Source of the DNA: an uncultured Bacteroidota bacterium
Lineage (GTDB): Bacteria > Bacteroidota > Bacteroidia > AKYH767-A > OLB10
DNA length: 64,000 nt
Assembly (NCBI GenBank): GCA_963814475.1
Contig: CAWFDA010000024.1
Span: forward strand, 5,685 to 69,684
Direction of reading: 5' to 3'
Notes under the pieces: generated by a model
What the model was told of the DNA's origin: nothing
The model's database searches: none
Seen by the model: the letters and a program-made list of their open reading frames with translations, nothing else
Shown: positions 1-14,239 of the stretch, in pieces
How positions within the stretch are numbered: the stretch's first letter is position 1
Layout: each line of letters opens with the position of its first letter
Position numbers and translations under genes: made by a program

Positions 1-939
1 CATACCAAGCGTAAGTTGAATTACCAAGCGATGCAACGGGAATTAGAAACAACCGGTGAGGTACAAATTTCCACATCTGATCCTGAGAGTCGCCAGCTCA
101 TTACCCGCAACAACATTACAGAAGTAGCCTATAATGTGCAAACGGTGGTGGATGCTAAGCACTGCATTCCGATTGATTATAAAGTCACTAATGAGAACGA
201 CAGTAAGGCGATGGGAGGCATGCTCAGAAGAAGCAAAGTGATATTACAAAGTAATGAATTTACAGCATTATACGACAAAGGATATCATACAGGAAGTGAA
301 TTTAAAATGGCTCACGATCTTGGCATTGAAGTGATGGTAGCCATACCGTTAGTAGCATCTCATGCACCGGATATCAATTACGATGTATCCAATTTTATAT
401 ATGATAAAAAAGCAGATACGTTTACTTGTCCGCAGCAGCAAGTTTTAGCAAGCAATGGAAGCTGGTATAAACGTGATCGAGGTAAGTCGATAGTGATGGT
501 GAAACATTACAAAACAGGTGCTTGCCAAACGTGTCCGGTGAACAGTTTATGTACAAAGAATAAAGAGGGTCGATTGATAGAACGTAGTGAATATGCAAAT
601 TACATTGAGCAAAACAAACTAAATATCGAAGCCCATCCACAGATCTACAAAAAGCGACAAGCCATAGTTGAGCATCCTTATGGAGTTTTGAAAAGACAGT
701 GGGGCTTCTACTATATTATGACCAAAAGAGGAAAAAAGCGGGCCAGTTCCGATGTTGGTTTTATGTTCATCGCCTACAACCTGCGCCGAATCATGAATAT
801 TTTGAGCCAAGAAGTGCTAAAAAAGTTCCTGGGAGAACTTTGCCTATTATTTTTTGGAATTTTCGACTCATTGAAAGCCATAAGCTTCAAAATAAGGGGG
901 TTACTTTTTCCCAACTTAAACTTTCAACTTCAAAATTAA
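1..939 (+). CDS. IS1182-family DDE transposase, C-terminal ~310 aa (N-terminus off-window)
   Basis: The frame is open from nt 1. It is colinear with the second copy in this window (QISTSDPESR / QISTTDPDSR, DKGYH, KKRQAIVEHPYGVLKRQWGF / RKRQEINEHIFGTIKRKWGY). Confidence 0.8.
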   Translation, partial: HTKRKLNYQAMQRELETTGEVQISTSDPESRQLITRNNITEVAYNVQTVVDAKHCIPIDYKVTNENDSKAMGGMLRRSKVILQSNEFTALYDKGYHTGSEFKMAHDLGIEVMVAIPLVASHAPDINYDVSNFIYDKKADTFTCPQQQVLASNGSWYKRDRGKSIVMVKHYKTGACQTCPVNSLCTKNKEGRLIERSEYANYIEQNKLNIEAHPQIYKKRQAIVEHPYGVLKRQWGFYYIMTKRGKKRASSDVGFMFIAYNLRRIMNILSQEVLKKFLGELCLLFFGIFDSLKAISFKIRGLLFPNLNFQLQN

Positions 940-1000
940 CGTTTGGTAAATCGACTTGGAATGAGCTATATTTGTGAGGTGGCGGGAGTTTTTAGACGGA
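1..1000 (+). mobile_element. IS1182-family insertion sequence, 3' part (left end off-window; right end approximate)
   Basis: Contains a transposase ORF open to the window edge. The right flank abuts the 13-mer CTGACGTTAGCGG (1001-1013), the same 13-mer that abuts the second IS1182-like copy at 10947-10959. Confidence 0.65.
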
Positions 1001-1059
1001 CTGACGTTAGCGGTAATGGTTACGAACATTTATAAAAAAGTAATGGATACGATTGACCA

Positions 1060-1489: not shown

Positions 1490-1583
1490 CCACTACCGCT
1501 AACATTTAGCCGAGTAGACGAAAAAGCCCTAAGCAAAAGCCCCGTGTGTGTGCGGGGCTTTTTTGTTCTATTCGGTGTTGACT
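1490..1583 (+). other. attC-like site 1 (putative): R''-like CCACTACCGCTAAC, long imperfect hairpin, R'-like GTTGAC
   Basis: 1490-1503 is the reverse complement (13/14) of the block start GTTAGCGGTAATGG at 1006-1019. The outer stem ccgagtagacgaaaaagc / gcttttttgttctattcgg encloses the GC hairpin 1539-1558. Confidence 0.5.
1535..1566 (+). terminator. Rho-independent terminator-like hairpin (GCCCCG-N8-CGGGGC plus T-tract)
   Basis: The sequence is aaaaGCCCCGtgtgtgtgCGGGGCtttttt, directly downstream of ORF 1060..1479. The same hairpin is the tip of attC-like site 1. Confidence 0.6.
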
Positions 1584-1821
1584 GAAACCTGACTGCTAGG
1601 GTACAAAGTAGACCGGAAATTATTTTATCAATTTACTATAAGGAGATTATTTTTGATCGATTGGTGTGTGAATGTTTTCAAAATAGTAGTCGATGGAACA
1701 TTTTAAATGGGTTCATGTGTTATAAAGTGGTTGGAGAAGATGCATAATTCGTAACATGGCACTACCAATTCACACGACAACGTGTCGTTCAAAAAAATAT
1801 ATATGCTACACCGTTATCGTT

Positions 1822-2991
1822 TTAGTCGGATGGGATTTTGCCGGATTGCAGGAGCACGAGACGTCCTTTTTTACAACCGGGACAGCGCATAGGATCACGC
1901 CCGGTACGTTCGATCATTCGTTGGAGGAAAGGTATTTTAGTGAGAGGAGTATGTTGGGGTACTTGCATTTTTTGCAGAATGCGGTTCACACGAATTTTGC
2001 GTTGGTTGTTGCCTAGGTACCCATAGTGCCGTATTTTAACAAAACGAAAGGGTAGAAGATGCTGCTCGAACCGACGAATGAACTCAGGAGCATTCAAGGT
2101 CATCACTTTCTGTTTTGATTTGTCAGCATAATCCTTGTAAGTGAACGTTACATCACCCACATCATCCACCTCTTTGATTCGGTGATTGCTGATGGCTACT
2201 TTGTGGGTATACCTTCCCAGATACTCCATCACCTGGAGCGGTCCACCAAAAGGTTGTTTAGCATGTACGATCCATTTTGTTGCAAATAAGTTGTTTAGTA
2301 AACCTTTCCAGTTGAGCTCTTGTTCATGAGTAAGTTTTAGCTTTTGTTTTTCACGCAGTTTGCGAAGTTGTTTAAGGAAGTACGCTTTGTAGACTTTCTC
2401 CATGGCTTGTATAGGAAACAATACCCCATACTTTGCTTTTTTGGCCGCGATCCACTGATCATCCGCCGTAGCGCCACCACCACTTACAATACAATGCAGG
2501 TGCGGATGAAAACTGAGCGTTTGTCCCCAGGTATGCAGCACGGCGATGATTCCGGGTTTAGCGCCCATATATTTTTCATCATCTGCAAAACGAAGTAACG
2601 TATAAGAGGCAGCATCAAAGAGTAAATCGAACAATTGCTTTCGGTTGCCCATCACCAGAGGGTTTAACTCATGAGGCAGTGTAAATACCACATGGTAATA
2701 TTTACAGGGCAAGAGTTCTTTGAGCCGGGACTCGATCCACTCTTCTTTTTTGGAGTTGCCGCAATTGGGACAATGTCGGTTGCGACAACTGTGATATATT
2801 ACTTGCGTGTATTCGCACCCGTTAGCATTGCATGCGGTGTGGTGGTAACCCATCGCAGCAGTACGACACTGTTCAATTTTACTCAACGTGCGCACGGCGC
2901 CTACTCCAACATGAGCAGGCCACGACGGATACTTTTGCAATACGAGTTGAACAGAGGCGTGCGGGCGACCTACTTGACAGGCGGCTGACAT
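1822..2991 (-). CDS. IS91-family (Y2, rolling-circle type) transposase with N-terminal zinc-binding domain
   Basis: Cys cluster CRNRHCPNC, HTWGQTLSFHPHLHCIV (HUH-like), and YLGRYTHKVAISNHRI (Y2 motif region). Overlaps the upstream recombinase gene by 22 nt. Confidence 0.8.
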   Translation of the reverse strand: MSAACQVGRPHASVQLVLQKYPSWPAHVGVGAVRTLSKIEQCRTAAMGYHHTACNANGCEYTQVIYHSCRNRHCPNCGNSKKEEWIESRLKELLPCKYYHVVFTLPHELNPLVMGNRKQLFDLLFDAASYTLLRFADDEKYMGAKPGIIAVLHTWGQTLSFHPHLHCIVSGGGATADDQWIAAKKAKYGVLFPIQAMEKVYKAYFLKQLRKLREKQKLKLTHEQELNWKGLLNNLFATKWIVHAKQPFGGPLQVMEYLGRYTHKVAISNHRIKEVDDVGDVTFTYKDYADKSKQKVMTLNAPEFIRRFEQHLLPFRFVKIRHYGYLGNNQRKIRVNRILQKMQVPQHTPLTKIPFLQRMIERTGRDPMRCPGCKKGRLVLLQSGKIPSD

Positions 2992-3839
2992 AGCGAGCTC
3001 TGATTAACAGGAATATACTCCAGCGGATTTTTCTTGTGCAAGGCATCCAGCGGACTGACCAGTCCATATCGCTTTTTACTTTGCAGATGCAGGTAAATCA
3101 TGGTGGTTTCGATCTTGCTATGACCTAGTAGCTCCTTGATGGTGTGGATATCGGAACCGTTGTCGAGCATGTGGGTGGCAAAGGAATGGCGGAGGGTATG
3201 CGTATTGTATCCCAGATGAGCCAGATTGGCTTTGACCATGCATTGATGTAAGGCGTGTTGAATGCTGCGCACATGCATGGGTTGGGAAGGAGTTTGTCCT
3301 TCAAAAAGAAAGGTAACAGGCCGATGTTTCAGAAAATAACTGCGCAGGGTATTTAAACACGAATGCGACAAAATGGTAAAGCGATCTTTGCGACCTTTTC
3401 CCTGAATGATTTTAATGCGCATGTTTTTGGAATCGATGTTAACGAGCATTAACTTACTGCATTCCTCTAGTCGAATACCACTGGAATAGAACAACTCCAC
3501 CAGCGCGCGTTGCTTAATCGATTCACAGGCACCTAGTAGCACTAACATCTCCTCCTCACTCATTACATTGGGCAGTTTAAACTCCTTTTTAGGATAGAGT
3601 TTAGAGGGTAATTCGTAAGGTTTTTTTAAGATCTGTTTGTAAAAGAAGGATAAGCTTTGGGCCACACTGCGGCACTTGGCATGACTTGCGTTGAAGGTCT
3701 TTTTGAGGTACAAAATATACGCTTCAATCTGCTGCTGAGTGATCGAACCCGGGTCACAATCAGGATAATACTCGAACAGAAATCGGGCTTCCCTCACATA
3801 ATTACGAATACTCATCACCGAGTAGTTCCCGATGGACAT
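2970..3839 (-). CDS. tyrosine recombinase (Xer/IntI-related phage-integrase family) coupled to the IS91-like transposase
   Basis: Catalytic signature GIRLEE, GKGRKDR, HTLRHSFATHML, LLGHSKIETTMIYLH. The C-terminal SPLDAL resembles integron integrases, but the IntI-specific insertion is absent. Confidence 0.85.
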   Translation of the reverse strand: MSIGNYSVMSIRNYVREARFLFEYYPDCDPGSITQQQIEAYILYLKKTFNASHAKCRSVAQSLSFFYKQILKKPYELPSKLYPKKEFKLPNVMSEEEMLVLLGACESIKQRALVELFYSSGIRLEECSKLMLVNIDSKNMRIKIIQGKGRKDRFTILSHSCLNTLRSYFLKHRPVTFLFEGQTPSQPMHVRSIQHALHQCMVKANLAHLGYNTHTLRHSFATHMLDNGSDIHTIKELLGHSKIETTMIYLHLQSKKRYGLVSPLDALHKKNPLEYIPVNQSSLCQPPVK

Positions 3840-3959
3840 GGTGCCTGCAAGTTGCTCGAGGTATCCCTGAGCAGCCTCATTTAATTTTTTTTTAGTTTCA
3901 TGTTGTTATTTGTTTATATTTGTTGAAACATAAACAAAAATTCCCGAACCGAAGGGAGG

Positions 3960-4063
3960 GTTTCAGTTCAACAGGCAGTTGGACGCCAGGGCCGGCTGGT
4001 GCTATTTGTTTTTTTATTAAATTGGCAGCCGGCCCCGTCGCCAACTGCCAAACCGTTATGCGC
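3960..4063 (+). other. attC-like site 2 (putative)
   Basis: GTTTCAGTTCAAC (3960-3972) is the reverse complement, with one extra T, of the block start GTTGACTGAAAC (1577-1588). GC-rich imperfect stem 3974-4002 / 4024-4049, spacer aaacc, then GTTATGCGC (4055-4063). Confidence 0.55.
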
Positions 4064-4075
4064 AATAATTAATTT

Positions 4076-4774
4076 ATGAATGATAATGTACCTATTCGAG
4101 ATTTTATCTTCCCTTTAATTAAAGCCCGGACTCTCGATGAAGAGTTTGAATATGAAGAATTAATTGGAACTGGGTTCTTAATTGGAAATCGCGGATTTGC
4201 AATCACTGCAGCCCATGTGGTTGAGCAATTAATGGAAGGAGATAGAAATCTGGAAAATATTCAAGCCATTTTCGCTGATGACACCAAATGGTTTGGATAT
4301 TCAATTGAATGTTATGAAAAACATGAAACGGAAGATGTAGCTATTATCAAATTAAAGAACTTTAAAAGAGATTCATTTCTTAAAGTATTGTGCGACAAAC
4401 AACATGCTGCAATTGAATATCATTGTTGGGGGTATCCTCGTGATGTGGCGAAAGAACTCCAAAAGCTTGATGAAAATGCTATGGAACGACCTGATTTAAT
4501 ATTTACACAAGGGTATATCAGAAGAAGAATTAGTGGTCCATTATATCCAACGATATTGTTTAGAGGTGTCGAATTTTACGAATTAAGTGAAACTGTAGGT
4601 CAAGGCAATTCCGGTGGTCCAATAATTTTAAAAAGTCCACCATATGGTAAAGTAATAGGATTATATATTGGTGAAAAAGAACAAGGGAATATTGGTTATG
4701 CTGTAAGAGCAGAAGCATTTGCAAATTGGTCTCCAAAAATTCTTGAAAAGACTATTATTGAAGAGTGTGGATAG
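4076..4774 (+). CDS. cytoplasmic trypsin-like (S1/Trypsin_2-type) serine protease
   Basis: No signal peptide. Catalytic triad contexts are TAAHV (His), EDVAIIKL (Asp) and GQGNSGGPI (Ser). Confidence 0.75.
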   Translation: MNDNVPIRDFIFPLIKARTLDEEFEYEELIGTGFLIGNRGFAITAAHVVEQLMEGDRNLENIQAIFADDTKWFGYSIECYEKHETEDVAIIKLKNFKRDSFLKVLCDKQHAAIEYHCWGYPRDVAKELQKLDENAMERPDLIFTQGYIRRRISGPLYPTILFRGVEFYELSETVGQGNSGGPIILKSPPYGKVIGLYIGEKEQGNIGYAVRAEAFANWSPKILEKTIIEECG

Positions 4775-4931
4775 CTACTCGTAAAACGTCAGCTCAATAG
4801 CTGTTTGTAAATAGGCAATATCCTACCTTTTGCGCTACTTGCCTAATATTCATCGCATTAGAAAATAATTCATATTAGCGAATTACATGCAAATAGTTTG
4901 CTAATTTTTCATTTATTTTAAAAATAGAGCT

Positions 4932-4939
4932 TATATTTG
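4932..4939 (+). promoter_or_regulatory. Bacteroidota -7-type promoter motif TAnnTTTG (TATATTTG)
   Basis: Lies 29 nt upstream of the ATG at 4968. The surrounding AT-rich spacer contains repeated ttgcaaat/atttgca elements. Confidence 0.4.
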
Positions 4940-4967
4940 CAGAATAATTGCAAATAACCAATACTAA

Positions 4968-6311
4968 ATGATTGTCCAATTCTCAGTTAAAAATTATAGG
5001 TCGTTTAAAGACAACTCCATTCTAAATCTTGTTGCATCAAATTACGACAAGAATACTCGTGAAGATTTGAACATATTTAACGTCAGCAAGTATAAATTGC
5101 GACTATTGAAAAGTGCAGTTATATATGGTGCTAACGCAAGTGGAAAAAGTAAATATCTGGAAGCATTAATGTTTATGAGACAATTTGCTTTGAATTCTTC
5201 TAAGAATACGCAACAAGGTGAACCTATTGCAACAGAACCTTTTCGTTTGAGTTCTTCAACTTTAAAAGAGGGTAGTGAATTTGAAATCATATTTCTCTTG
5301 AAGAGTGAATTATATAGATATGGATTTGAAGTAAGTAATAAAAAGGTTAATGCTGAATGGCTCTATCAAAAAAGTAAATCAAAAGAAATAGAATTGTTTT
5401 ATCGAGAGTTTCAAGAAATTAAAACAAATGATATAAAAATTCCTAAAGCTAAAACATTGATTAAAGAGCAGCTGATAAGAGATAATGCATTATTTCTATC
5501 CGTACTTGCACAGTTTAATGACAAACAAGCTGAATTAATATTGGAATGGTTTCAAAATCTAAAAACTATCTCTGGTTTAAAAGAAGAAGGGTATCTAAAT
5601 GATACTATGAAAATGTCACAAGATAATAAACATAAAGAAAGAATTTTATCATTTTTAAAGAATGCAGATATCGGGATAGAAGATTTCAAATTAAAAAAGT
5701 ATGCATTTAATAATTTCGAAGAAGAAATTGAAAAAATGGAAGGGAATGAAAAACTAGATAATGAATTGAAAAGTGCATTGAAAGGCTTAAACTCATACTT
5801 TATGAGAACTTCGAAAGAAGAGAATAGAGAAGTATTTACCGATGTTATTATGTATCATAAACAATTTAATTCAAAAGGTAAATCAATTGGAAATGTTGAG
5901 TTTTCTTTAAAAGAGGATGAATCTTCCGGTACACGGAAGTATTTTGCAATGATTGGACAAATTATACAGGTAATTGAAACAGGTAGTGTTTTAGTAGTAG
6001 ATGAATTAGATTCAAAATTACATCCAAATCTAGTTTGCAGAATTGTTTCACTTTTCAATTCAAAAAAAAGTAATCCACATAATGCGCAAATAATTTTTAA
6101 TACACATGACACCAACCTCTTAAGTTCAGGATTATTTAGAAGAGATCAAATTTGGTTTACAAAACGGGACAACTTTGGGGCATCAATATTATATTCATTA
6201 GCTGATTTCAAAACTGATGAAGTCCGAAAAAATGAAGCTTTTGAAGAAAACTACATAAGGGGAAAGTATGGTGCCGTTCCTTTTCTTTCAGAATTTGATT
6301 ATTTTATTTAA
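4968..6311 (+). CDS. AAA_21 / ABC-type ATPase (AbiLi / AriA / OLD-ATPase-like)
   Basis: N-terminal FSVKNYRSFKD, Walker A GANASGKS, Walker B VLVVDELDSKLHP, H-loop IIFNTHD, and the RRDQIWFTKRD motif. A ~200 aa charged insertion lies between Walker A and Walker B. Confidence 0.8.
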   Translation: MIVQFSVKNYRSFKDNSILNLVASNYDKNTREDLNIFNVSKYKLRLLKSAVIYGANASGKSKYLEALMFMRQFALNSSKNTQQGEPIATEPFRLSSSTLKEGSEFEIIFLLKSELYRYGFEVSNKKVNAEWLYQKSKSKEIELFYREFQEIKTNDIKIPKAKTLIKEQLIRDNALFLSVLAQFNDKQAELILEWFQNLKTISGLKEEGYLNDTMKMSQDNKHKERILSFLKNADIGIEDFKLKKYAFNNFEEEIEKMEGNEKLDNELKSALKGLNSYFMRTSKEENREVFTDVIMYHKQFNSKGKSIGNVEFSLKEDESSGTRKYFAMIGQIIQVIETGSVLVVDELDSKLHPNLVCRIVSLFNSKKSNPHNAQIIFNTHDTNLLSSGLFRRDQIWFTKRDNFGASILYSLADFKTDEVRKNEAFEENYIRGKYGAVPFLSEFDYFI

Positions 6312-6457
6312 CGATTTCCTGAACTGCATATGAAAGAAAAGGAATTAAAGAAGAGCAAAAGGGAAATAAGAATCGAAATCGTTTTTCAGAAACGAAGTTT
6401 AAGCGTCAAACAAATTCTTCACTTGAAAGGACGCCACCCAGTCTTCAAGAAAATCCA

Positions 6458-7078
6458 TTGTATTTGATCTACTGTGAAGGCAAAAATACTGAACCTTCAT
6501 ATTTTAAGAAATTTAAACTCTCTACAGTCACAATCGAATCATTTGGTGAAGGGAAAAATACACTAACACTTGTGGAAAGGGCTAAACAGTTAGCAGATGA
6601 AGCTGAGAAGCAAAATAGGGAGTATGATAAAATCTGGTGTGTGTTTGATGCAGACCCTAAACCAGATAACCCTAATCAATTAAAAAATTTTAATGCAGCA
6701 ATTCAGAAGGCTCAAAAATACGGATTTGGAGTAGCATATTCTAATCAAGCATTTGAATACTGGTTACTATTGCATTTTGAAGACCATCAGGGTGGTGCAA
6801 TGAATAGGAATTTATATGGTGATAAGCTTAATTCTTATTTGCATAAACTTGGTATTGTTTACGAACATAATGGGAATAAAAATGTTAATACAGACTTATT
6901 TGAAATTCTAATGGAAATTGTAAAAACAGATAGAAATGGAAATAATTTTTCACGATCAGATATCGCGTGTATAAGAGCGGAAAAAATATTTAACCGGCTA
7001 GATCATACTAATCCTGGAAAAGAAGAATCTTCAACTTCAGTTTTTCAACTTGTTAAGGAGATTAAGAGCTTCATTTGA
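6458..7078 (+). CDS. RloB-like (Toprim-type) protein, AbiLii-like
   Basis: LIYCEGKNTEPSYF (Toprim Glu), VFDADP (DxD) and YSNQAFEYWLLLHF (RloB signature). The frame is open upstream to 6323, and an out-of-frame ATG sits at 6330. The true start is therefore uncertain: TTG at 6458, or a frameshifted N-terminus. Confidence 0.75.
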   Translation: MYLIYCEGKNTEPSYFKKFKLSTVTIESFGEGKNTLTLVERAKQLADEAEKQNREYDKIWCVFDADPKPDNPNQLKNFNAAIQKAQKYGFGVAYSNQAFEYWLLLHFEDHQGGAMNRNLYGDKLNSYLHKLGIVYEHNGNKNVNTDLFEILMEIVKTDRNGNNFSRSDIACIRAEKIFNRLDHTNPGKEESSTSVFQLVKEIKSFI

Positions 7079-7091
7079 ATACAGTTCGGAC

Positions 7092-7226
7092 CTACTGCGC
7101 ATAACAGCCGGTCTTGCGCAAGGCCGGCCTGAAGTTTTTTACTTTTATTAAATTGGTCCACCGAAACGGGAAAAACCTCCCGCTTCTGTGGACAAGGTAG
7201 GCCAGCCCTGCGCAAACCGGCGGAAC
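7092..7226 (+). other. attC-like site 3, 5' portion (R''-like GCGCATAAC plus nested hairpins), interrupted downstream by an intron and an IS
   Basis: GCGCATAAC (7097-7105) is the exact reverse complement of GTTATGCGC (4055-4063). Outer stem 7106-7129 / 7200-7220; inner stem about 7157-7171 / 7179-7193. The loop shares ttattaaattgg with site 2. Confidence 0.5.
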
Positions 7227-9196
7227 GTGTGTGTCCTGAATCAGGACAATCCAAATATTGAATTGAAAAGAATGCTGTACAAAAGATGGAAGACAGACTT
7301 TAGAGATGGGAAAACGAAAGCGCGGAGTCCAAGCGAACTGAATGGCTGGAATACCTATATCAAAATCTGAACGGCCTTCCAAAGACGACTTTCAGGAGTA
7401 GTCTTCAAACCACCTTATGCTGCATGGATGGAAACATCCTTTGTGGTGAACGATAAGGAAAAACGGGAGCATAAGACTCTTGTAGTTGTGTGATACGGAG
7501 CTGAAGAAATTAAATCAGCTGAATGAAGCCTCGTAAGCGGTTAGACAGTGCTGAAAGTAGACGGTTACGTTTGCGGCTACGACAAACAAAAAGTGTAAGG
7601 GAGACCTGATTTCTGTTTGCATAGCACTCGGGGTAAAGCAGGCAGGACTGTATCACAGGCTTTTGTACGGAACAGGAGAAGTCGATACTGTACTGGTAAC
7701 CAAGAATACGGGAAACAGTCATACAAGGATAGTATGAGATATCGGTGGCAGACTAAGCTCGTAGTAGTGATGAAGTTTCTGAAAGGAAATGGAGCGAAGG
7801 GCTTAGCTTGTTTAGTATTTCAATAATTTACAACCAGCAGCAATGGGATGATTGACTATTATGAAATAAAATCACAACCAATTACCAGAGTGATGGTATG
7901 GCAGGCATACAAGAAAGTACGCGCCAACAAAGGAAGTCGGGGCATAGACGATATGACTTGGCAATGGTTGGATAAAGAACCAGACGTAACCGAACTATAT
8001 CAAACTATGGAACCGTCTAACTTCTGGCAGTTATTTTCCAAAGCCAGTAAAAGAAGTACCCATTCCAAAGAAGAAAGGCGGGAGAGCGTAAATTAGGCAT
8101 TCCAACACTAATAGACCGTATCGCTCAACAAGTAGTCAGAAACACATTTAGAACGAATAGTAGAACCACGTTTTCACAACAGTTCGTTTGGCTATCGACC
8201 ATCGAAGAAATTGTCATCAGGCGGTAGCGCAATCATGCAAGAATTGCTTTCAACCATGACTTTGCTATTGACCTAGACATCAAAGGATTCTTCGACACAA
8301 TTGACCATGAGATTGCTGCATGAAAGCGGTAGCGTTTTACTGTCAAGGACAAATGGGTTTTGCTATACGTCGAACGGTGGCTCAAAGCAGGAATCGTGCA
8401 ACAGGACGGCAAGTATATAGACCGACTAACAGGCACTCCGCAGGGAGGTGTAATTAGTCCGCTACTGGCAAATATCTTTTTGCATGTAAGTTTTGACAAA
8501 TGGATGGATAAAAACCATCCTGAAAAGCCATTTGAACGTTATGCAGATGATGTGTGGTGCATTGCAAAACGGAGAAACAAGCGATATTTGTTTTAAAACA
8601 AATTGACGCAACGACTTCAGTAATTGCAAACTTAGGACTACATCCTGATCAAAACCAGAATTGTGAATCTTGCGAGGAATAGCGGAAAAGAAATACCCGA
8701 AAGAGTTATGATTTTCTGGGATTCACGATCCGACCACACTGGTGTAAGATAAATGGAGACAGCTGATGCTTATGCCAGGCATTTTCATAAGCGGGAAATC
8801 GGAGACTGCCGTACTTGGACAAATTGAGGGCAAATGCACATTCACAAGCGCCGAGTACCTATTGAAGAATTAGCGCAAAGATTTAGACCTATTCTTCAGG
8901 GAATAATGAATTACTACGGCAAGTTTTCAACAGGGCATCATCGGTACATCTGGAATCAGACTAAATGCAAGATTGCTTAAATGGGTAAAATGGGAGAAGG
9001 GGCTATACAAAATGGCATCTTTACGATGGCTAAGGAAAAAGTATAAGGAATCCCTTTACTTTTTCCACACTGGAAATTGGTACATCCATAAAGTATTCAT
9101 ACTTTGGTGATTCAAACAAGAAGAGCCGTGTGAATCGAGAGGTTCAAGCACGGTTCTGTGGGAACGTGAGGGTGAAATTCCCTCGCGTGACCCGAT
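7227..9196 (+). mobile_element. bacterial group II intron, class C-like, with decayed intron-encoded protein
   Basis: Starts GTGTG just 3' of a hairpin. Canonical 34-nt domain V lies at 9123-9156 (GAGCCGTGTGAATC-GAGA-GGTTCAAGCACGGTTC: GNRA loop, 2-nt bulge). A domain VI-like hairpin follows and the element ends ...CCCGAT. An RT ORF lies in domain IV. The 1970 nt length fits IIC introns. Boundaries are accurate to within a few nt. Confidence 0.8.
7848..9110 (+). pseudogene. group II intron reverse transcriptase/maturase, multiply frameshifted
   Basis: Fragments lie in three frames: QAYKKVRANKGSRGIDDMT (7848..), LGIPTLIDRIAQQVV (from 8092), TPQGGVISPLLANIFLH ... YADD (8360..8596), and a maturase-like tail ending at 9110. 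Confidence 0.8.
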
Positions 9197-9201
9197 CAGG
9201 T

Positions 9202-10944
9202 TGTGAAAAAACTACCTTTTCCTACACTTTCTTTAAAACGCATTCGAAAAATTATTTTACTGAAGCATTATAACGTTGTAAGCGCATGCGAAAATCAGGC
9301 TGCCATTTTATTCCAATAAATAGTTGTGCGACAAATCGCTTTTAAATGCCTTGTAAATCCCACAAAAAGCCACTCCTTGCGGTATTTTGGCTTCCAGTTT
9401 ATGAGTTGTTGCATTAAATCTTCAAAATCGAGTATGTTTAAGGTTCGCTTGATGTTGTAACTTAACATAATCAAACTCCATTCACCATTTACTTTTTCAA
9501 GTCCTATAAGGTTGGTATAATAGTAGCCCCACTTTCGTTTTATTGTTCCAAATATATGTTCGTTTATTTCCTGTCGTTTGCGATATAGCTTTGCGTTCCT
9601 TTTGTAATTTTTATTATTCTGTTCTACTGCTGCTGCATATTGACTACGTTCTATTTCTCGTCCACCTTTTTGTCGGCCGGTGCATAAATGTTTCACCGGA
9701 CAATCTTTGCATTTTGGAGTGCGGTACTTTCTTGATATTGGTAGGAAATTTTATCCTCTCGTTTTTTCGTATGCCAGGTGCCAAAAGTTCTAGAGTTTGT
9801 CCGGCAGGACATGTATAGGTGTCGTGTTGTTCTATTGTATTGAAACTGGTCTACTAAGGTATGCTTTGGTGGTTCCAAAGGGATTACTGTTTACTAGATT
9901 CCTGTTGCGCAACAATAGTTTTTAAATCATTATTCTGACAAGTTTCAATTTCTCGAGCATTGTGATAACCCTTATCGGCGAGCAATGTAAAAGATTGTTT
10001 GGAAAGATTATTTTTAGCTTCCAGTGCAAAGGATGATAACGCATTGCGATCGTTCCGATTAATGGTGTGAGTGGCAACAATTAGATTATACTTATCATCA
10101 ACAGCAGCTTGGGTATTGTAACAAACCTCCACCACTTGACCTTGCACTAACAAACTTCTACTATCAGGATCAGTGGTACTAATTTGTGGTTCTCCACTTG
10201 CAATTAACTCCTCATGTAGGTGTTCGTACTTAATTTGATTTTTATTTAGCCGATCAAGTTTTGATTCAATTTCTGATATAGTACCGGCATCCTCCTCCAT
10301 ATCGAGTTCATCCATTTGATTAAGATACTCGACTGTTTTTTCTTCAATATACTTGAAATGCCTCTCTAACTTTTTAGCTGTATAATTATTTTTCTTACCG
10401 TTATGTGCTCTTGATTTTGTTCCATCAATGGCAATAGTTTTTCCTCCAATTAAATTGGCCTCACTTAAGAACGAAACAAACAACTTAAACATATTCCGGA
10501 GGGCTTTCCCATTTACTTTTCTAAAATCGGCTATGCTGTGATAATTAGGAACCAGTTTTCCGCACAGCCATTGCATCTCAATATTCCGGTGGCACTCTTT
10601 CTCAAGACGACGAGAGGAGCGTATGCCGTTCTGATAACCATACAAATAAATCTTTAAAAATAGTTTGGGCTCAAAAGAGGGTCGGCCCTCCGTCTGAATC
10701 TCTTTAACAATAAATCCCAACTTTTCTAATTTTAATTTATTTACAAAGGCATCCAAGAAACGAACGGGATCGTGAGCCGAAATTTGCTCTTCCAGTGAGC
10801 CAAAGGAGAGCTGGTGTCGGTCGTAAGGGAGAATATGTTGCATTTGTTATTTGTTTGACTCAAATTTACACAGTATTCTGCCACTTTTTTTAAATAATTA
10901 TTAGAATTAATGAACAATCAATTGAGGAAATTAGTATTTTCACA
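9202..10944 (-). mobile_element. IS1182-family insertion sequence with imperfect terminal inverted repeats
   Basis: The ends are TGTGAAAAAACTACC (9202-) and the reverse complement TGTGAAAATACTAAT (-10944). Inserted a few nt after the intron 3' end and immediately before CTGACGTTAGCGGC. Confidence 0.75.
9295..10843 (-). pseudogene. IS1182-family transposase split over three frames
   Basis: The pieces are ORFs 9884..10843 (N-terminus), 9693..9878 (middle) and 9295..9696 (C-terminus). They are colinear with the intact-looking copy at 1..939. Confidence 0.75.
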
Positions 10945-10946
10945 GT

Positions 10947-10960
10947 CTGACGTTAGCGGC
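10947..10960 (+). other. R'-like box of attC-like site 3 and start of the next block (CTGAC-GTTAGCGGC)
   Basis: GTTAGCGGC (10952-10960) is the exact reverse complement of GCCGCTAAC at 12584-12592. Confidence 0.5.
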
Positions 10961-11067
10961 AATGCCGGTTTAAATGACAATAATAGTAATTAATTAATAT
11001 GTTTAAGTTCTATTGGTATATCAGCGCTATGATGAAATGATTAATAATAAGTATAATACAAAATTCA

Positions 11068-12456
11068 ATGGTTAAAGTAAAGATGTATCGATTACTTTGT
11101 ATCTTAACTAATCTAGTTATGATCAATACTTCAGGATATTGTCAGAATCAATATAATGTTTGGTATTTCGGAGATCACGCAGGCGTTGATTTTAATTCCG
11201 GTATTCCAGTGGCTTTAAATAATAGTGCAATGTTTGCGTTCGAAGGCTGTGCAGGCATATGTGATTCTTCAGGAAATATTATGTTTTATACGAATGGAGG
11301 AGATCTCAATTCGTATGCGGGAGGAGTATGGAACCGCAATAATGTTTTAATGCCAAATGGTGATTTAAATGGATTCAGTGGTTGCCAAAGTTCGGATCAA
11401 TCATCCTTGATTATTCCCTTTCCAGGAACAACTAATCTCTTTTATTTATTCACACTTGATTGTTCCGAAGATGCTTTTGGCGGTGGGTTTCGATACTCGA
11501 TAATTGACATGAACCTTGATGCCGGCAATGGAGACATTACTATTAAGGATACATTGGTAGAAAATGGCATGAGCGAATCAATGTGTGGAGTAGTACATTC
11601 AAATGGCAATGATTTTTGGGTATTAGTTCACAGTAATAGCACAAACGAATTCAAAGCCTTCTTGGTCAACTCGTCAGGCATTCAGCCACCCGTTTCTTCT
11701 TTAATTGGGCCAGGGTCATGTGGTATTTGTCAATTAAAAGCCAACGCATATGGTACACAAATTTGCTTAGCAGCTTGTTCTGGTTCCTTCCTGTTTAATT
11801 TTAATAACTCGACTGGAGTTGTTTCGAATCAGGTAAACTTAAATGTAAATGGTGGTTTTGGAAGTTCATTTTCTCCGAATGGAAACATCTTATATCTCTT
11901 AGATGGAACCGCATTTCCTTTTAAGTTGGTTCAATTTGATTTAACCGCTTCAAACATATCTTCTACATACTTGGTTATTAGTTCACTCACTACCTATGGC
12001 GAAGGGCTGATGCTGGCACATGATTGCAAAATTTATATGCCAGCGAGTGGAACTCATTACCTTCATGTGATAAGCGATCCGGATGTTTTAGGAATTGGCT
12101 GTAGCTTTACTACTAATGCCGTTTATTTGGGGAATTCATTTAGCAAATACGAACCACCTAATAATATTGATGGGTTATTTGCATCAACCTGTTTAATAAA
12201 TGGCTACCAGAATCAATATTCGCAATCATTTACTGTTTATCCAAACCCTGCTCACAATTTTATTTACATTCATAGTAATACAAATAATAATTTGAAAGTT
12301 AAAATTTCTGATATAAGCGGACAAATATTAAGTAGTGGTATCTATAATAATGCTCAGCTAATAAAAATCAACATAAATAATTTTGAATCAGGTATCTATT
12401 TTTTGATAATTGTTGAAGACCAAATTGTTTATACCCGAAAATTATTTATCGAATAA
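11068..12456 (+). CDS. T9SS type-A C-terminal sorting domain protein (secreted, function unknown)
   Basis: Signal peptide present. The C-terminus reads FTVYPNPAHNFIYI ... GIYFLIIVED ... KLFIE, typical of the Por_Secre_tail domain. Confidence 0.75.
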   Translation: MVKVKMYRLLCILTNLVMINTSGYCQNQYNVWYFGDHAGVDFNSGIPVALNNSAMFAFEGCAGICDSSGNIMFYTNGGDLNSYAGGVWNRNNVLMPNGDLNGFSGCQSSDQSSLIIPFPGTTNLFYLFTLDCSEDAFGGGFRYSIIDMNLDAGNGDITIKDTLVENGMSESMCGVVHSNGNDFWVLVHSNSTNEFKAFLVNSSGIQPPVSSLIGPGSCGICQLKANAYGTQICLAACSGSFLFNFNNSTGVVSNQVNLNVNGGFGSSFSPNGNILYLLDGTAFPFKLVQFDLTASNISSTYLVISSLTTYGEGLMLAHDCKIYMPASGTHYLHVISDPDVLGIGCSFTTNAVYLGNSFSKYEPPNNIDGLFASTCLINGYQNQYSQSFTVYPNPAHNFIYIHSNTNNNLKVKISDISGQILSSGIYNNAQLIKININNFESGIYFLIIVEDQIVYTRKLFIE

Positions 12457-12579: not shown

Positions 12580-12800
12580 ACATGCCGCTAACATAAAAAT
12601 TAATAGCAACAATTCTTTGAAGGGTAGTTTCCGTTCTTTAAGTTTGTGCAAGTAATAAGCGTCCTGCGTTTTGCAAAAAGCTTGCGCCGGATCGTTGCGG
12701 ATTGTTGGAGATTTTAATTGGCGCAATCTTTTTGCTGAGAGAGTTCTGCTATTTAATCCCTTCAAATTATTACTGCTTTAATTCCTTGTGCGTTATGGGC
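12580..12800 (+). other. attC-like site 4 (putative, unusually long at ~220 bp)
   Basis: Begins with R''-like GCCGCTAAC (12584-12592). Has an outer stem gcaacaattctttgaaggg / cccttcaaattattactgc and an inner stem gcaaaaagcttgcgcc / ggcgcaatctttttgc. Ends with GTTATGGGC (12792-12800). Confidence 0.4.
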
Positions 12801-13759: not shown

Positions 13760-14239
13760 GTGGAGTGTCTTGAATCACCTTCGTTTTATTGAAGGTGAAT
13801 GCTGTGTAAAACATGCCTGCCTGCAGCAATCAGGGAAGACTTTAAGAGGAGATAGAACGAAAACTCAGCCGAGCGAACTGAGCAAAGAATCACCATCAAC
13901 AGGCGAAAGAAATGAACTTCCGCTGACGCTTGTCAAAGCCTGTCCCGACGAACGTCGGGAAAGAGTTAGCAAACCACCTTAAAGTGCCTTGAAAGGAAAC
14001 CTTCTTTGTGCTGAACGTTAAGGAAAAACGAGAACAGCGATTCTTGTAGGTGATTATAGTCGAGCTGAATAAATTGAATCTCCTATTAAGCCTCGTAAGC
14101 GGAATAGACGATGTAGAAAACACTCTCTCACGTTTAGAGTGCAAAAAAAATGTGGAGGACAACCTGCCTGCTAGCCAAACGGCTAGTTCGGCAGGCAGGT
14201 GTGGGAAAGTAGGGGTGAAATTCCCCTGCGTGACCCGAT
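13760..14239 (+). mobile_element. internally deleted, ORF-less derivative of the group II intron at 7227-9196
   Basis: Colinear homology to 7204-7646 (for example gaacgNtaaggaaaaacg, gagctgaa, gaagcctcgtaagcgg, GCAGGCAGG). It then joins directly to the domain VI-like end (tgtgggaa..gtgaaattccc..gcgtgacccgat). It lacks the IEP and the canonical domain V. Confidence 0.7.

What the first reader, a model, noticed from the sequence alone, without database searches (positions are those of the whole stretch)
7092..10960. Group II (class C-like) intron lodged inside an attC-like hairpin site, then hit by an IS1182 element
A 1970-nt element begins with GTGTG six nt after the 3' arm of a long hairpin (7106-7129 / 7200-7220). 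It has a textbook 34-nt domain V (9123-9156, GAGA tetraloop, 2-nt bulge) and a domain VI-like helix, and it ends in CCCGAT (9196). Its reverse transcriptase/maturase carries YADD but is broken into several frames. An IS1182-family element (9202-10944) sits 5 nt after the intron end and separates the intron from the R'-like box GTTAGCGGC. Class C introns are known to home next to terminator-like or attC stem-loops. Here the intron has the same orientation as the cassette ORFs. As I recall, the described IIC-attC introns are usually antisense to the cassettes; I am not certain of this.
Basis: partly seen in the sequence, partly recalled or inferred. Interest (0 to 1): 0.6.

Follow-up and report, generated by a model that had tools for sequence, protein, structure and literature searches.

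The report
Dead sense-strand intron in attC site
A decayed group II intron sits in a gene-cassette recombination site (attC) of a Bacteroidota genome, in the same direction as the cassette genes; it belongs to an RmInt1-like lineage rather than the known attC-seeking class C lineage, and it arrived after, not before, the neighbouring insertion sequence.

Summary
Rfam finds group II domains D1 (7369-7486) and D5/D6 (9121-9196). The RT/maturase is a pseudogene with about 12 frame changes.

The hairpin is a genuine attC-type site. Cassette starts and their R'' boxes are exact inverted 9-mers. Uninterrupted paralogous attCs in the same genome read ...GGCGGAAC GT|TA...

I correct three points:

1. 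**Intron start.** The intron starts at 7229, not 7227. It sits at GT|T of the R' box, supported by EBS1-IBS1 covariation.
2. **Order of events.** The IS1182 element really spans GT (7227-7228) plus 9197-10951. This IS family always inserts at AAC|GTT of attC. The intron lies between its 2nd and 3rd bases, so the IS came first.
3. **Class.** The intron is not class C. Its D1 and its intact relatives' proteins group with RmInt1 (class D, Rfam D1D4-2), apart from a class C reference.

Four ORF-less copies in this genome, and intact relatives in other Bacteroidota, sit at the same attC position. Flanking ORFs, where checked, are on the same strand. Described IIC-attC introns are the opposite: antisense, bottom strand, at R''.

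This copy is a fossil. I rate it a new variant of a known kind, of moderate interest.

The parts
4055..4063 (+). Start of cassette 3 (R' box GTTATGCGC of the preceding attC). It is the exact inverted 9-mer of the R'' box at 7097-7105.
   Evidence: Read directly. Cassette 3 carries trypsin-like, AAA_21 and RloB genes.
7097..7105 (+). R'' box GCGCATAAC of the invaded attC.
   Evidence: Paralogous attCs are shown.
7106..7226 (+). attC stem (arms about 7106-7129 and 7198-7221) with an internal extra hairpin, then the 5-nt spacer GGAAC (7222-7226).
   Evidence: Fold z-scores of -5.6 and -8.0. Three uninterrupted paralogues of this attC in the same genome read ...GGCGGAACGT|TA... or ...GGCCAAACGT|TA....
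7224..7228 (+). IBS1 (AACGT). The last two bases, GT at 7227-7228, are the first two bases of the IS1182 left end.
   Evidence: for the IS ends; for the EBS1 pairing.
7229..9196 (+). Group II intron, 1968 nt, 5' GTGTG ... GAT 3'. It is RmInt1-like (Rfam D1D4-2 type) and decayed.
7565..7573 (+). EBS1 loop TTACGTTTG, with core ACGTT at 7567-7571.
   Evidence: The loop is invariant in the attC clade. At the homologous position in non-attC relatives the loop matches each intron's own 5' exon (5-6 nt in five introns).
7848..9107 (+). RT/maturase pseudogene with a YADD motif and about 12 frameshifts plus stops. There is no room for an endonuclease domain.
9123..9196 (+). Domain V (9123-9156) and domain VI through to the 3' splice site.
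   Evidence: Rfam RF00029, 57.9 bits.
9197..10951 (-). attC-specific IS1182-family element lacking its first two bases. The transposase is a pseudogene (10843 down to 9295). The termini are (GT)CAGGTTGTGAAAA ... TTTTCACAGTCTGAC.
10952..10960 (+). R' box GTTAGCGGC, which is the start of cassette 4. It is the exact inverted 9-mer of GCCGCTAAC at 12584-12592.
13763..14239 (+). Second copy of the same intron family. It is ORF-less and lacks D5. It sits behind another hairpin (5' exon ...GGCGAACCGT, 3' exon TAGGCG).

Best explanation
The region 7097-10960 is one integron-type attC site of a cassette array on the + strand. It was invaded twice.

1. First, an IS1182-family element that specifically targets the AAC|GTT junction of attC R' boxes inserted there.
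2. Later, a group II intron reverse-spliced into the top strand just behind the attC hairpin. It landed after ...GGAAC GT, so it sits between bases 2 and 3 of the IS left end. That end (GTCAGGT) mimics a normal R' box (GTTAGGC).

The intron belongs to a Bacteroidota clade of endonuclease-less, RmInt1-like (class D type) introns. Its invariant EBS1 loop (UUACGUUUG) pairs with the conserved (A)AACGU at the spacer/R' junction, and EBS3 would pair with the following U. Insertion therefore falls at GT|T, one base from the usual cassette crossover point, in the sense orientation relative to the cassette genes.

- Shown: the anatomy, the target position, the order of events, the clade and the orientation.
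- Inferred: that the folded attC hairpin or single-stranded DNA is needed in addition to the 5-6 nt pairing, and that the sense orientation lets the intron be transcribed with the array and splice.

This copy is dead, because the RT is a pseudogene. Its effect now is to split the attC of the trypsin/AAA_21/RloB cassette by 3.7 kb, which should fix that cassette to the next one.
For: **Intron.** Rfam finds D1 and D5/D6. The RT fragments best match TIGR04416, RVT_1 and GIIM.

**attC.**
- Exact inverted 9-mers bracket cassettes at 1006/1495, 4055/7097 and 10952/12584, and at C24:3198/3874.
- The hairpin z-scores are -5.6 and -8.0.
- Three uninterrupted paralogues of this same attC read ...AACGT|TA....

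**Target.**
- All 5 copies in the genome lie on the ORF strand just after an attC hairpin. Their 5' exons end ...AAC(C)GT (one ends ...AACTT). Four 3' exons begin TA; W1's begins C, the IS base.
- The same holds in relatives L018, L023, L027, L029 and L041 and in congeneric genomes.
- The genome has 944 AACGTT sites, yet every copy is at an attC.

**5' splice site.** The EBS1 loop was located by covariation. Five non-attC relatives carry loops complementary to their own exons. The attC clade carries an invariant ACGUU(U).

**IS first.** In 5 copies here, a second IS species, and 3 copies in congeneric genomes, the flanks read AAC|GTCAG...CTGAC|GTT. In the window the order is GGAAC-GT-[intron]-CAGGT...GTCTGAC-GTTAGCGGC.

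**Class.** RmInt1, verified through its published IBS1 (PMC3123198), hits RF01999. It is 40% identical over the full length to the clade's protein. The class C reference hits RF02001, is 32% identical, and scores 394 against 165 bits to GsI-IIC RT. The tree agrees.
Against: - No integrase with the integron-specific insertion was found in this 77.5%-complete assembly, nor in the five relatives' genomes. 'attC' therefore rests on structure and cassette signatures only.
- Top versus bottom strand is assigned from ORF direction, one conserved extrahelical base and the better bottom-strand fold. It was not assigned with IntegronFinder's attC model.
- The 3' exon base here is C, not the usual T.
- Spacers of the AAACC type give only 3 contiguous pairs with EBS1.
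- The trees are quick trees with SH-aLRT support only. I delimited the attC clade partly by the feature of interest.
- No S.ma.I2-type sequence was available to place the classical IIC-attC clade.
- The class D assignment rests on one verified reference (RmInt1). Class E was not sampled.
Confidence: 0.75

Rival explanations
1. One reading: a class C (IIC-attC-like) intron homed into the attC, and an IS1182 element then landed 5 nt downstream of it.
For: - The behaviour is IIC-like: the insertion lies just behind a stem-loop, IBS1 is short, and no IBS2 covaries.
- The protein is compact and lacks an endonuclease domain.
- The best PDB matches of the clade's protein are IIC RTs.
Against: - RmInt1-type and other D1D4-2 proteins give the same modest PDB scores. 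A true class C reference scores 394 bits.
- The ribozyme D1 family is that of RmInt1, not that of the class C reference.
- In the tree the class C references split away with support 99.
- IS junctions in 9 insertions put GT inside or at the IS end. The intron lies inside that junction, and an intact GTT follows the IS.
Confidence: 0.06
2. The hairpins are not integron attC sites. They would be recombination or termination elements of a different, integrase-independent or Xer-like system. The intron lineage would then target 'attC look-alikes', and comparison with integron biology would be only an analogy.
For: - No IntI over the TIGR02249 cut-off in this genome or in 5 related genomes. Every hit lacks model positions ~180-236.
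- The R''/L'' spacer is 1 nt against 5 nt on the other arm, unlike canonical attC. Only one conserved extrahelical base is seen.
- IntegronFinder 2.0 reported almost no complete integrons in Bacteroidetes (PMC9024848).
- Tyrosine recombinases with long N-terminal extensions lie 1-2 kb from attC-type sites.
Against: - The R'' ...AAC and R' GTT... boxes are present.
- Cassette-specific exact complementarity implies crossover at G|TT.
- The arrays are co-oriented, promoter-poor small cassettes.
- The assembly is only 77.5% complete.
Confidence: 0.2
3. The hairpin is an ordinary transcription terminator or REP-like palindrome after the RloB gene, and the intron is a generic terminator-seeking element.
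For: The hairpin lies 19 nt after a stop codon. Class C introns do use terminators (PMC4424553), as the Microscilla reference does.
Against: - There is no T-run.
- The stem-loop is 115-130 nt long and is framed by AAC/GTT boxes.
- Inverted 9-mers bracket the cassettes.
- The same attC family occurs uninterrupted elsewhere.
Confidence: 0.02

Closest known systems
Group IIC-attC introns (S.ma.I2, E.c.I7, Kl.pn.I1, N.e.I1 and others)
   Same: - Group II introns that insert in integron attC sites just behind the folded stem, at a GT|T (published consensus TTGT/T).
- Short IBS1 plus IBS3.
- Endonuclease-less protein.
- They also occur in arrays without a neighbouring integrase (PMC3001079, PMC7923331).
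   Different: - The known ones are class C. They sit on the bottom strand at R'', the gene-proximal end of attC, antisense to the cassettes, and they split the gene from its attC.
- This lineage is RmInt1-like by protein and D1. It sits on the top strand at R', the distal end, sense to the cassettes. Its IBS1 is (A)ACGT.
- Its phylogenetic relation to S.ma.I2 itself was not tested, because no reference sequence was at hand.
RmInt1 of Sinorhizobium meliloti (class D, IIB3)
   Same: - Same Rfam D1 family (RF01999).
- 40% identity over the full-length protein, including the C-terminal extension.
- No endonuclease domain.
- Same side of the tree.
- RmInt1 is reported to reverse-splice into single-stranded DNA at the lagging-strand template (PMC8914252 abstract).
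   Different: - RmInt1 homes to one long site in ISRm2011-2, with a 7-nt IBS1 plus IBS2 (PMC3123198).
- The attC clade has a fixed 5-6 nt EBS1, no covarying EBS2, and many different 5' exons that share only a hairpin.
Unusual IIC intron in an Enterobacter cloacae integron, and the IIB1 intron UHB.I2 in halophile arrays
   Same: Both are reported as co-oriented with the cassettes. [quoted passage not shown]
   Different: - They are single cases of other classes (IIC; IIB1/CL1).
- Here there is a whole clade across several Bacteroidota orders with a fixed R' GT|T target.
- The E. cloacae paper could not be read.
IS1111-attC elements (ISPa21, ISPst6)
   Same: Insertion sequences that specifically target attC sites (PMC3001079). 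The IS1182-family elements here do the same.
   Different: - A different transposase family: DDE IS1182 rather than IS110/IS1111.
- The position is AAC|GTT at R', whereas the IS1111-attC elements are near the 5' end of attC.
- Both orientations occur: the first species is antisense in every copy, and the second species is sense.

Membership tests
Group II intron | Domain V/VI and domain I ribozyme structure | tested here: met
   RF00029 scores 57.9 bits (gathering 40). RF01999 scores 73.5 bits (gathering 36). These scores match those of intact relatives.
Group II intron | 5' GUGYG and 3' AY boundaries, with EBS1-IBS1 pairing | tested here: met
   The boundaries are GTGTG at 7229 and ...GAT at 9196. 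EBS1 ACGTT (7567-7571) pairs with IBS1 AACGT (7224-7228). The loop was located by covariation in relatives.
Group II intron | Intron-encoded RT/maturase in domain IV | tested here: met
   The fragments map colinearly to TIGR04416 (best 94 bits), RVT_1 and GIIM, and YADD is present. The gene is a pseudogene. The intact relative L018 scores 402 bits, cut-off 300.
Class C (IIC) introns | Protein clusters with class C reference proteins | tested here: not met
   Identity to the Microscilla class C protein is 32%, against 40% to RmInt1. The score to GsI-IIC RT is 165 bits, against 394 for the class C reference. The class C references are separated by a branch with SH-aLRT 99.
Class C (IIC) introns | IIC-type ribozyme | tested here: not met
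   The class C reference and L070 hit RF02001 (D1D4-3). This intron and RmInt1 hit RF01999 (D1D4-2). A full secondary-structure model was not built.
Class C (IIC) introns | Insertion just after a stem-loop, with a short IBS1 and no IBS2 | tested here: met
   In every copy inspected in detail the L' arm, a 5-nt spacer and GT precede the intron. The 5' exons vary upstream of position -5. No EBS2 covaries in the clade, although EBS2 is seen in relatives L025, L028 and L085.
IIC-attC lineage | Bottom-strand insertion at R'', antisense to the cassettes, TTGT/T | tested here: not met
   The intron is on the ORF strand, at the R' end, with (A)ACGT|T. Strand polarity is also supported by the position of the extrahelical base and by the better bottom-strand fold.
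IIC-attC lineage | Monophyly with S.ma.I2 | not tested
   No S.ma.I2-type sequence could be fetched. The plasmid hits I examined were not in integrons.
Class D (RmInt1-like) introns | Protein and ribozyme group with RmInt1 | tested here: met
   RmInt1's identity was checked against the published IBS1 GAUGAGA, C-8 and U-15. Class E and the g1-g4 varieties were not sampled, so 'class D or a close ally' is the safe wording.
Class D (RmInt1-like) introns | Site-specific homing with EBS1 plus EBS2 | tested here: not met
   No covarying EBS2-IBS2 is seen. The many different 5' exons share only (A)AACGT.
Integron attC site | R''(..AAC)/R'(GTT..) boxes around an imperfect palindrome, with each cassette start complementary to its own R'' | tested here: met
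   There are four exact inverted 9-mer pairs and several folded sites.
Integron attC site | Extrahelical bases and a symmetric unpaired spacer | tested here: inconclusive
   One conserved extrahelical base lies 9 bp into the stem on the R''/L'' arm. The spacer is 1 nt against 5 nt. IntegronFinder's model was not available.
Integron attC site | Cognate integron integrase (IntI with its specific insertion) | tested here: not met
   No hit exceeds the TIGR02249 cut-off in this assembly (77.5% complete) or in 5 related genomes. The insertion region is absent from every hit.
IS1182 family | Transposase matches the family model; terminal inverted repeats | tested here: met
   The intact sister copy scores 344.7 bits, cut-off 270. 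The inverted repeats are GTCAG(GT/AC)TGTGAAAA. The window copy is a pseudogene.

The most novel reading that the evidence does not exclude
attC homing has arisen a second time, outside class C. On this reading, a clade of RmInt1-like (class D type) introns spread through Chitinophagales, Saprospiraceae, Cytophagales, Lentimicrobiaceae and other Bacteroidota. It targets the top strand of attC at R' GT|T. It is therefore co-transcribed with the cassettes and could splice out of their mRNA. It has also produced ORF-less mini-introns that are mobilised in trans: two copies 97% identical sit at different attCs. These arrays, which have no recognisable IntI, would then carry their own set of attC parasites, made up of this intron clade and attC-specific IS1182 elements.

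A more speculative extension is that such sense-oriented introns supply the RT step in cassette formation, as proposed for IIC-attC introns.
Probability: 0.5. Interest if true: 0.7.

Novelty: new variant of a known kind. Interest (0 to 1): 0.6.

Why it matters
Introns in attC sites have been treated as the hallmark of one class C lineage that always sits antisense and is therefore poorly transcribed in its host.

This lineage sits at the mirror-image position, and it is sense, top-strand and RmInt1-like. It suggests that the folded attC is a general landing pad that different retroelements and IS families have learned to use. It also gives a natural contrast for testing what decides strand choice: the asymmetric 1-nt versus 5-nt spacer leaves AACGT|T on one strand only.

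It adds evidence that Bacteroidota carry real cassette arrays, which current integron finders barely report.

Practically, the intron and the IS together freeze a candidate anti-phage cassette (trypsin/AAA_21/RloB) in place.

Tried and rejected
- **attC search by box complementarity.** A naive scan for AAC...GTT pairs with complementary flanks did not discriminate in this AT-rich DNA. I replaced it with a stem-anchored scan.
- **PDB similarity as a class test.** IIC RTs were the best PDB hits. RmInt1-type and other D1D4-2 proteins give the same scores, so the test does not discriminate. I used a class C reference instead.
- **RF01999 control genomes.** The model rings in B. thetaiotaomicron and M. 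acetivorans. This does not decide the class.
- **Fetching a classical IIC-attC intron.** I looked in plasmids. The Serratia and Pseudomonas hits were not in integrons. The two key papers (PMC3256610, PMC2747902) are not held.
- **The conserved GAACG bulge in D1 as EBS1.** Rejected, because it is conserved regardless of the exon.
- **Sequencing error as the cause of the RT frameshifts.** Rejected, because neighbouring ORFs of 289-462 aa and two sister IS copies (514-515 aa transposase frames) are intact.
- **Orthologous empty site of this cassette in 82 other genomes of the family.** None was found. Paralogous attCs served instead.
- **Careful tree.** The careful ML search did not finish in time. 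The trees reported are quick trees.


Full report
**What is there.**
- Rfam at gathering threshold finds a group II domain I segment (RF01999, 7369-7486, 73.5 bits) and domains V/VI (RF00029, 9121-9196, 57.9 bits) on the + strand.
- Between them lies an RT/maturase with YADD. It can only be followed by changing frame about 12 times, and it also has in-frame stops.
- Its pieces map in order onto TIGR04416 (group II RT/maturase) and onto Pfam RVT_1 and GIIM. Retron and DRT models score far lower.
- Neighbouring genes of 289-462 aa are intact, so the damage is real decay and not sequencing noise.

**The hairpin is an attC-type site.**
- The window starts inside a co-oriented array of small cassettes.
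- Each cassette's first bases are the exact inverted 9-mer of the R'' box that follows its genes. The pairs are GTTAGCGGT 1006 / ACCGCTAAC 1495, GTTATGCGC 4055 / GCGCATAAC 7097, and GTTAGCGGC 10952 / GCCGCTAAC 12584. A further pair lies just upstream of the window. This is the footprint of recombination at G|TT.
- Deleting 7227-10951 in silico gives a 139-nt site. It folds at -34.9 kcal/mol on the top strand and -42.4 kcal/mol on the bottom strand (z -5.6 and -8.0).
- Three uninterrupted paralogues of this very attC exist in the genome. They read ...GGCGGAACGT|TACAAG...GGCGGAACGT|TATATG and ...GGCCAAACGT|TACCAG. These serve as empty-site controls.
- The sites differ from textbook attC. The spacer is 1 nt on the R'' side and 5 nt on the R' side, and only one conserved extrahelical base is seen.
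- No integrase with the integron-specific insertion was found in this 77.5%-complete assembly or in five related genomes.

**Exact insertion point.**
- The genome holds five copies of the intron family: this one, a D5-less remnant at 13763-14239, and three ORF-less copies on contig C10.
- All five lie on the strand of the flanking ORFs, directly behind an attC hairpin. Their 5' exons end ...AAC(C)GT; one ends ...AACTT. Four 3' exons begin TA; this copy's begins C, the third base of the IS.
- In related introns with other targets, a loop about 80 nt after the RF01999 segment is complementary to each intron's own 5' exon. It is 5-6 nt long and covaries in five introns.
- In all attC-associated members that loop is invariant, UUACGUUUG (window 7565-7573). 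It pairs with (A)AACGU.
- This fixes the 5' splice site at 7228|7229 and the target at GT|T of the R' box. An EBS2 can be seen in relatives L025, L028 and L085, but none covaries in the attC clade.
- The genome has 944 AACGTT sites. The hexamer alone therefore cannot explain five out of five copies at attC. This supports, but does not prove, a role for the hairpin or for single-stranded DNA.

**Order of events.**
- Four full-length copies and one partial copy of the IS in this genome, a second IS1182 species that starts before the window and ends at 1005, and three diverged copies in congeneric genomes all read spacer-AAC|GTCAG...CTGAC|GTT-R'.
- The IS is thus attC-specific. Its true ends are GTCAGGTTGTG... 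and ...CACAGTCTGAC.
- In the window the order is GGAAC, GT, intron, CAGGT...GTCTGAC, GTTAGCGGC. An intact GTT follows the IS, and the intron lies after the IS's first two bases.
- If the intron had come first, the IS would have had to land at ...CGAT|TAGCGGC and create a GT on its far side.
- The simplest reading is that the IS came first. The intron then used the attC hairpin plus AACGT, with the IS end GT|CAGGT standing in for GT|TAGGC.
- The IS copy is itself a pseudogene. Two sister copies are intact.

**Which kind of intron.**
- The Microscilla pSD15 intron is listed as class C in PMC3001079. It sits after a terminator hairpin, hits RF02001, and scores 394 bits to GsI-IIC RT.
- The intact protein of this clade (L018) scores 165 bits to GsI-IIC RT and is 32% identical to the Microscilla protein.
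- RmInt1 was recognised by its published IBS1 and flanking positions (PMC3123198). It hits RF01999 at 113.7 bits and is 40% identical over the whole length to L018.
- In a quick ML tree of 59 proteins, the class C references split off with SH-aLRT 99. The eight attC-associated proteins form one group (support 100) nested among Bacteroidota introns on the RmInt1 side.
- Other members of this broad family are ordinary site-specific homers, for example into the YADD codons of other RT genes.

**Comparison with what is known.**
- Described IIC-attC introns insert in the bottom strand at R'' (TTGT/T), antisense to the cassettes. They are considered poorly transcribed for that reason (PMC3001079, PMC7923331).
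- One top-strand IIC case and one IIB1 case in sense orientation are reported.
- Here a whole clade (Chitinophagales, Saprospiraceae, Rhodonellum, Lentimicrobiaceae and Bacteroidales MAGs, plus 6 of the 7 other genomes of this genus) uses the mirror position. In the loci checked (L023, L027, L029 on both sides, L018 upstream), flanking ORFs are on the same strand.
- The 1-nt versus 5-nt spacer asymmetry explains the strand choice. Only the top strand offers AACGT|T. The bottom strand reads CTGT|T.

**Function now.**
- This copy cannot move by itself, and no other group II RT is present in the assembly.
- Its ribozyme parts score like those of intact relatives, so splicing with a maturase supplied in trans is not excluded.
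- The double insertion separates the two halves of the attC by 3.7 kb. That should lock the trypsin/AAA_21/RloB cassette to the next one.

**Limits.**
- The trees are quick trees.
- The classical IIC-attC clade and class E were not sampled.
- IntegronFinder's model was not available.
- One congeneric genome searched (G034) is unpublished. Its hits are counted among the 6 of 7 congeneric genomes with intron matches, and one 3' exon example (L133) comes from it. No other claim rests on it.

Noticed in passing
window 1-1005 and 9197-10951; also C24:1065-2818, C7:9076-10828, C23:4967-6716, C10:~10560-11271, and L110-L112 in congeneric genomes: Two IS1182-family species insert only at the AAC|GTT junction of attC R' boxes, with no target duplication. 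The termini are GTCA...TGAC. One species is always antisense to the cassettes and the other is sense. I found no report of attC-specific IS1182 elements; the known attC-specific ISs are IS1111 family.
   Followed up: partly
G000 contig C10:4076-4910 and 5601-6390 (L107): Two ORF-less mini-introns (835 and 790 nt) are 97% identical. They share the same replacement of the RT gene by ~100 nt and keep D5/D6. They sit at two different attCs one cassette apart, which implies mobilisation in trans. The assembly has no intact group II RT.
   Followed up: partly
window 13763-14239 and C10:15012-15577: Two further remnants keep the 5' part and domain VI. Each carries a different unrelated hairpin where domain V should be. 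I have no explanation for why the same region was replaced twice.
   Followed up: no
L130 (G031:C9) and L021: These are tandem intron-behind-intron arrangements. A second copy is inserted after the first G of a resident copy (5' exon ...AAAACGTG, 3' exon TGTGAC...), as if choosing a T at +1.
   Followed up: no
G000 C1:199995-201254 and C23:245576-246982 (L010, L011): These are tyrosine recombinases of 419 and 468 aa. They are the best TIGR02249-like hits in the genome but lack the IntI insertion, and they carry 130-190 aa N-terminal extensions of no known family. They lie 1-2 kb upstream of attC-type sites (C1:203134, C23:248177). They are candidates for the array's recombinase.
   Followed up: partly
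window 1580-4054: An IS91 (Y2) transposase plus a Xer-like recombinase lie on the - strand. The unit is enclosed by cassette-type boundaries (GTTGACTG / CAGTTCAAC) and is present in several copies in the genome.
   Followed up: no
L158 (A. pseudofirmus pBpOF4-01) and L159 (S. meliloti pSymA): RF01999-type introns are inserted exactly in the YADD-coding codons of other RT genes (...TAYGCNGAYGAYT|...). This is a homing-into-RT pattern seen in two distant phyla.
   Followed up: no
window 4076-7078: The cassette frozen by the two insertions encodes a trypsin-like protease, an AAA_21 ATPase and an RloB-like protein. This looks like a defence module.
   Followed up: no
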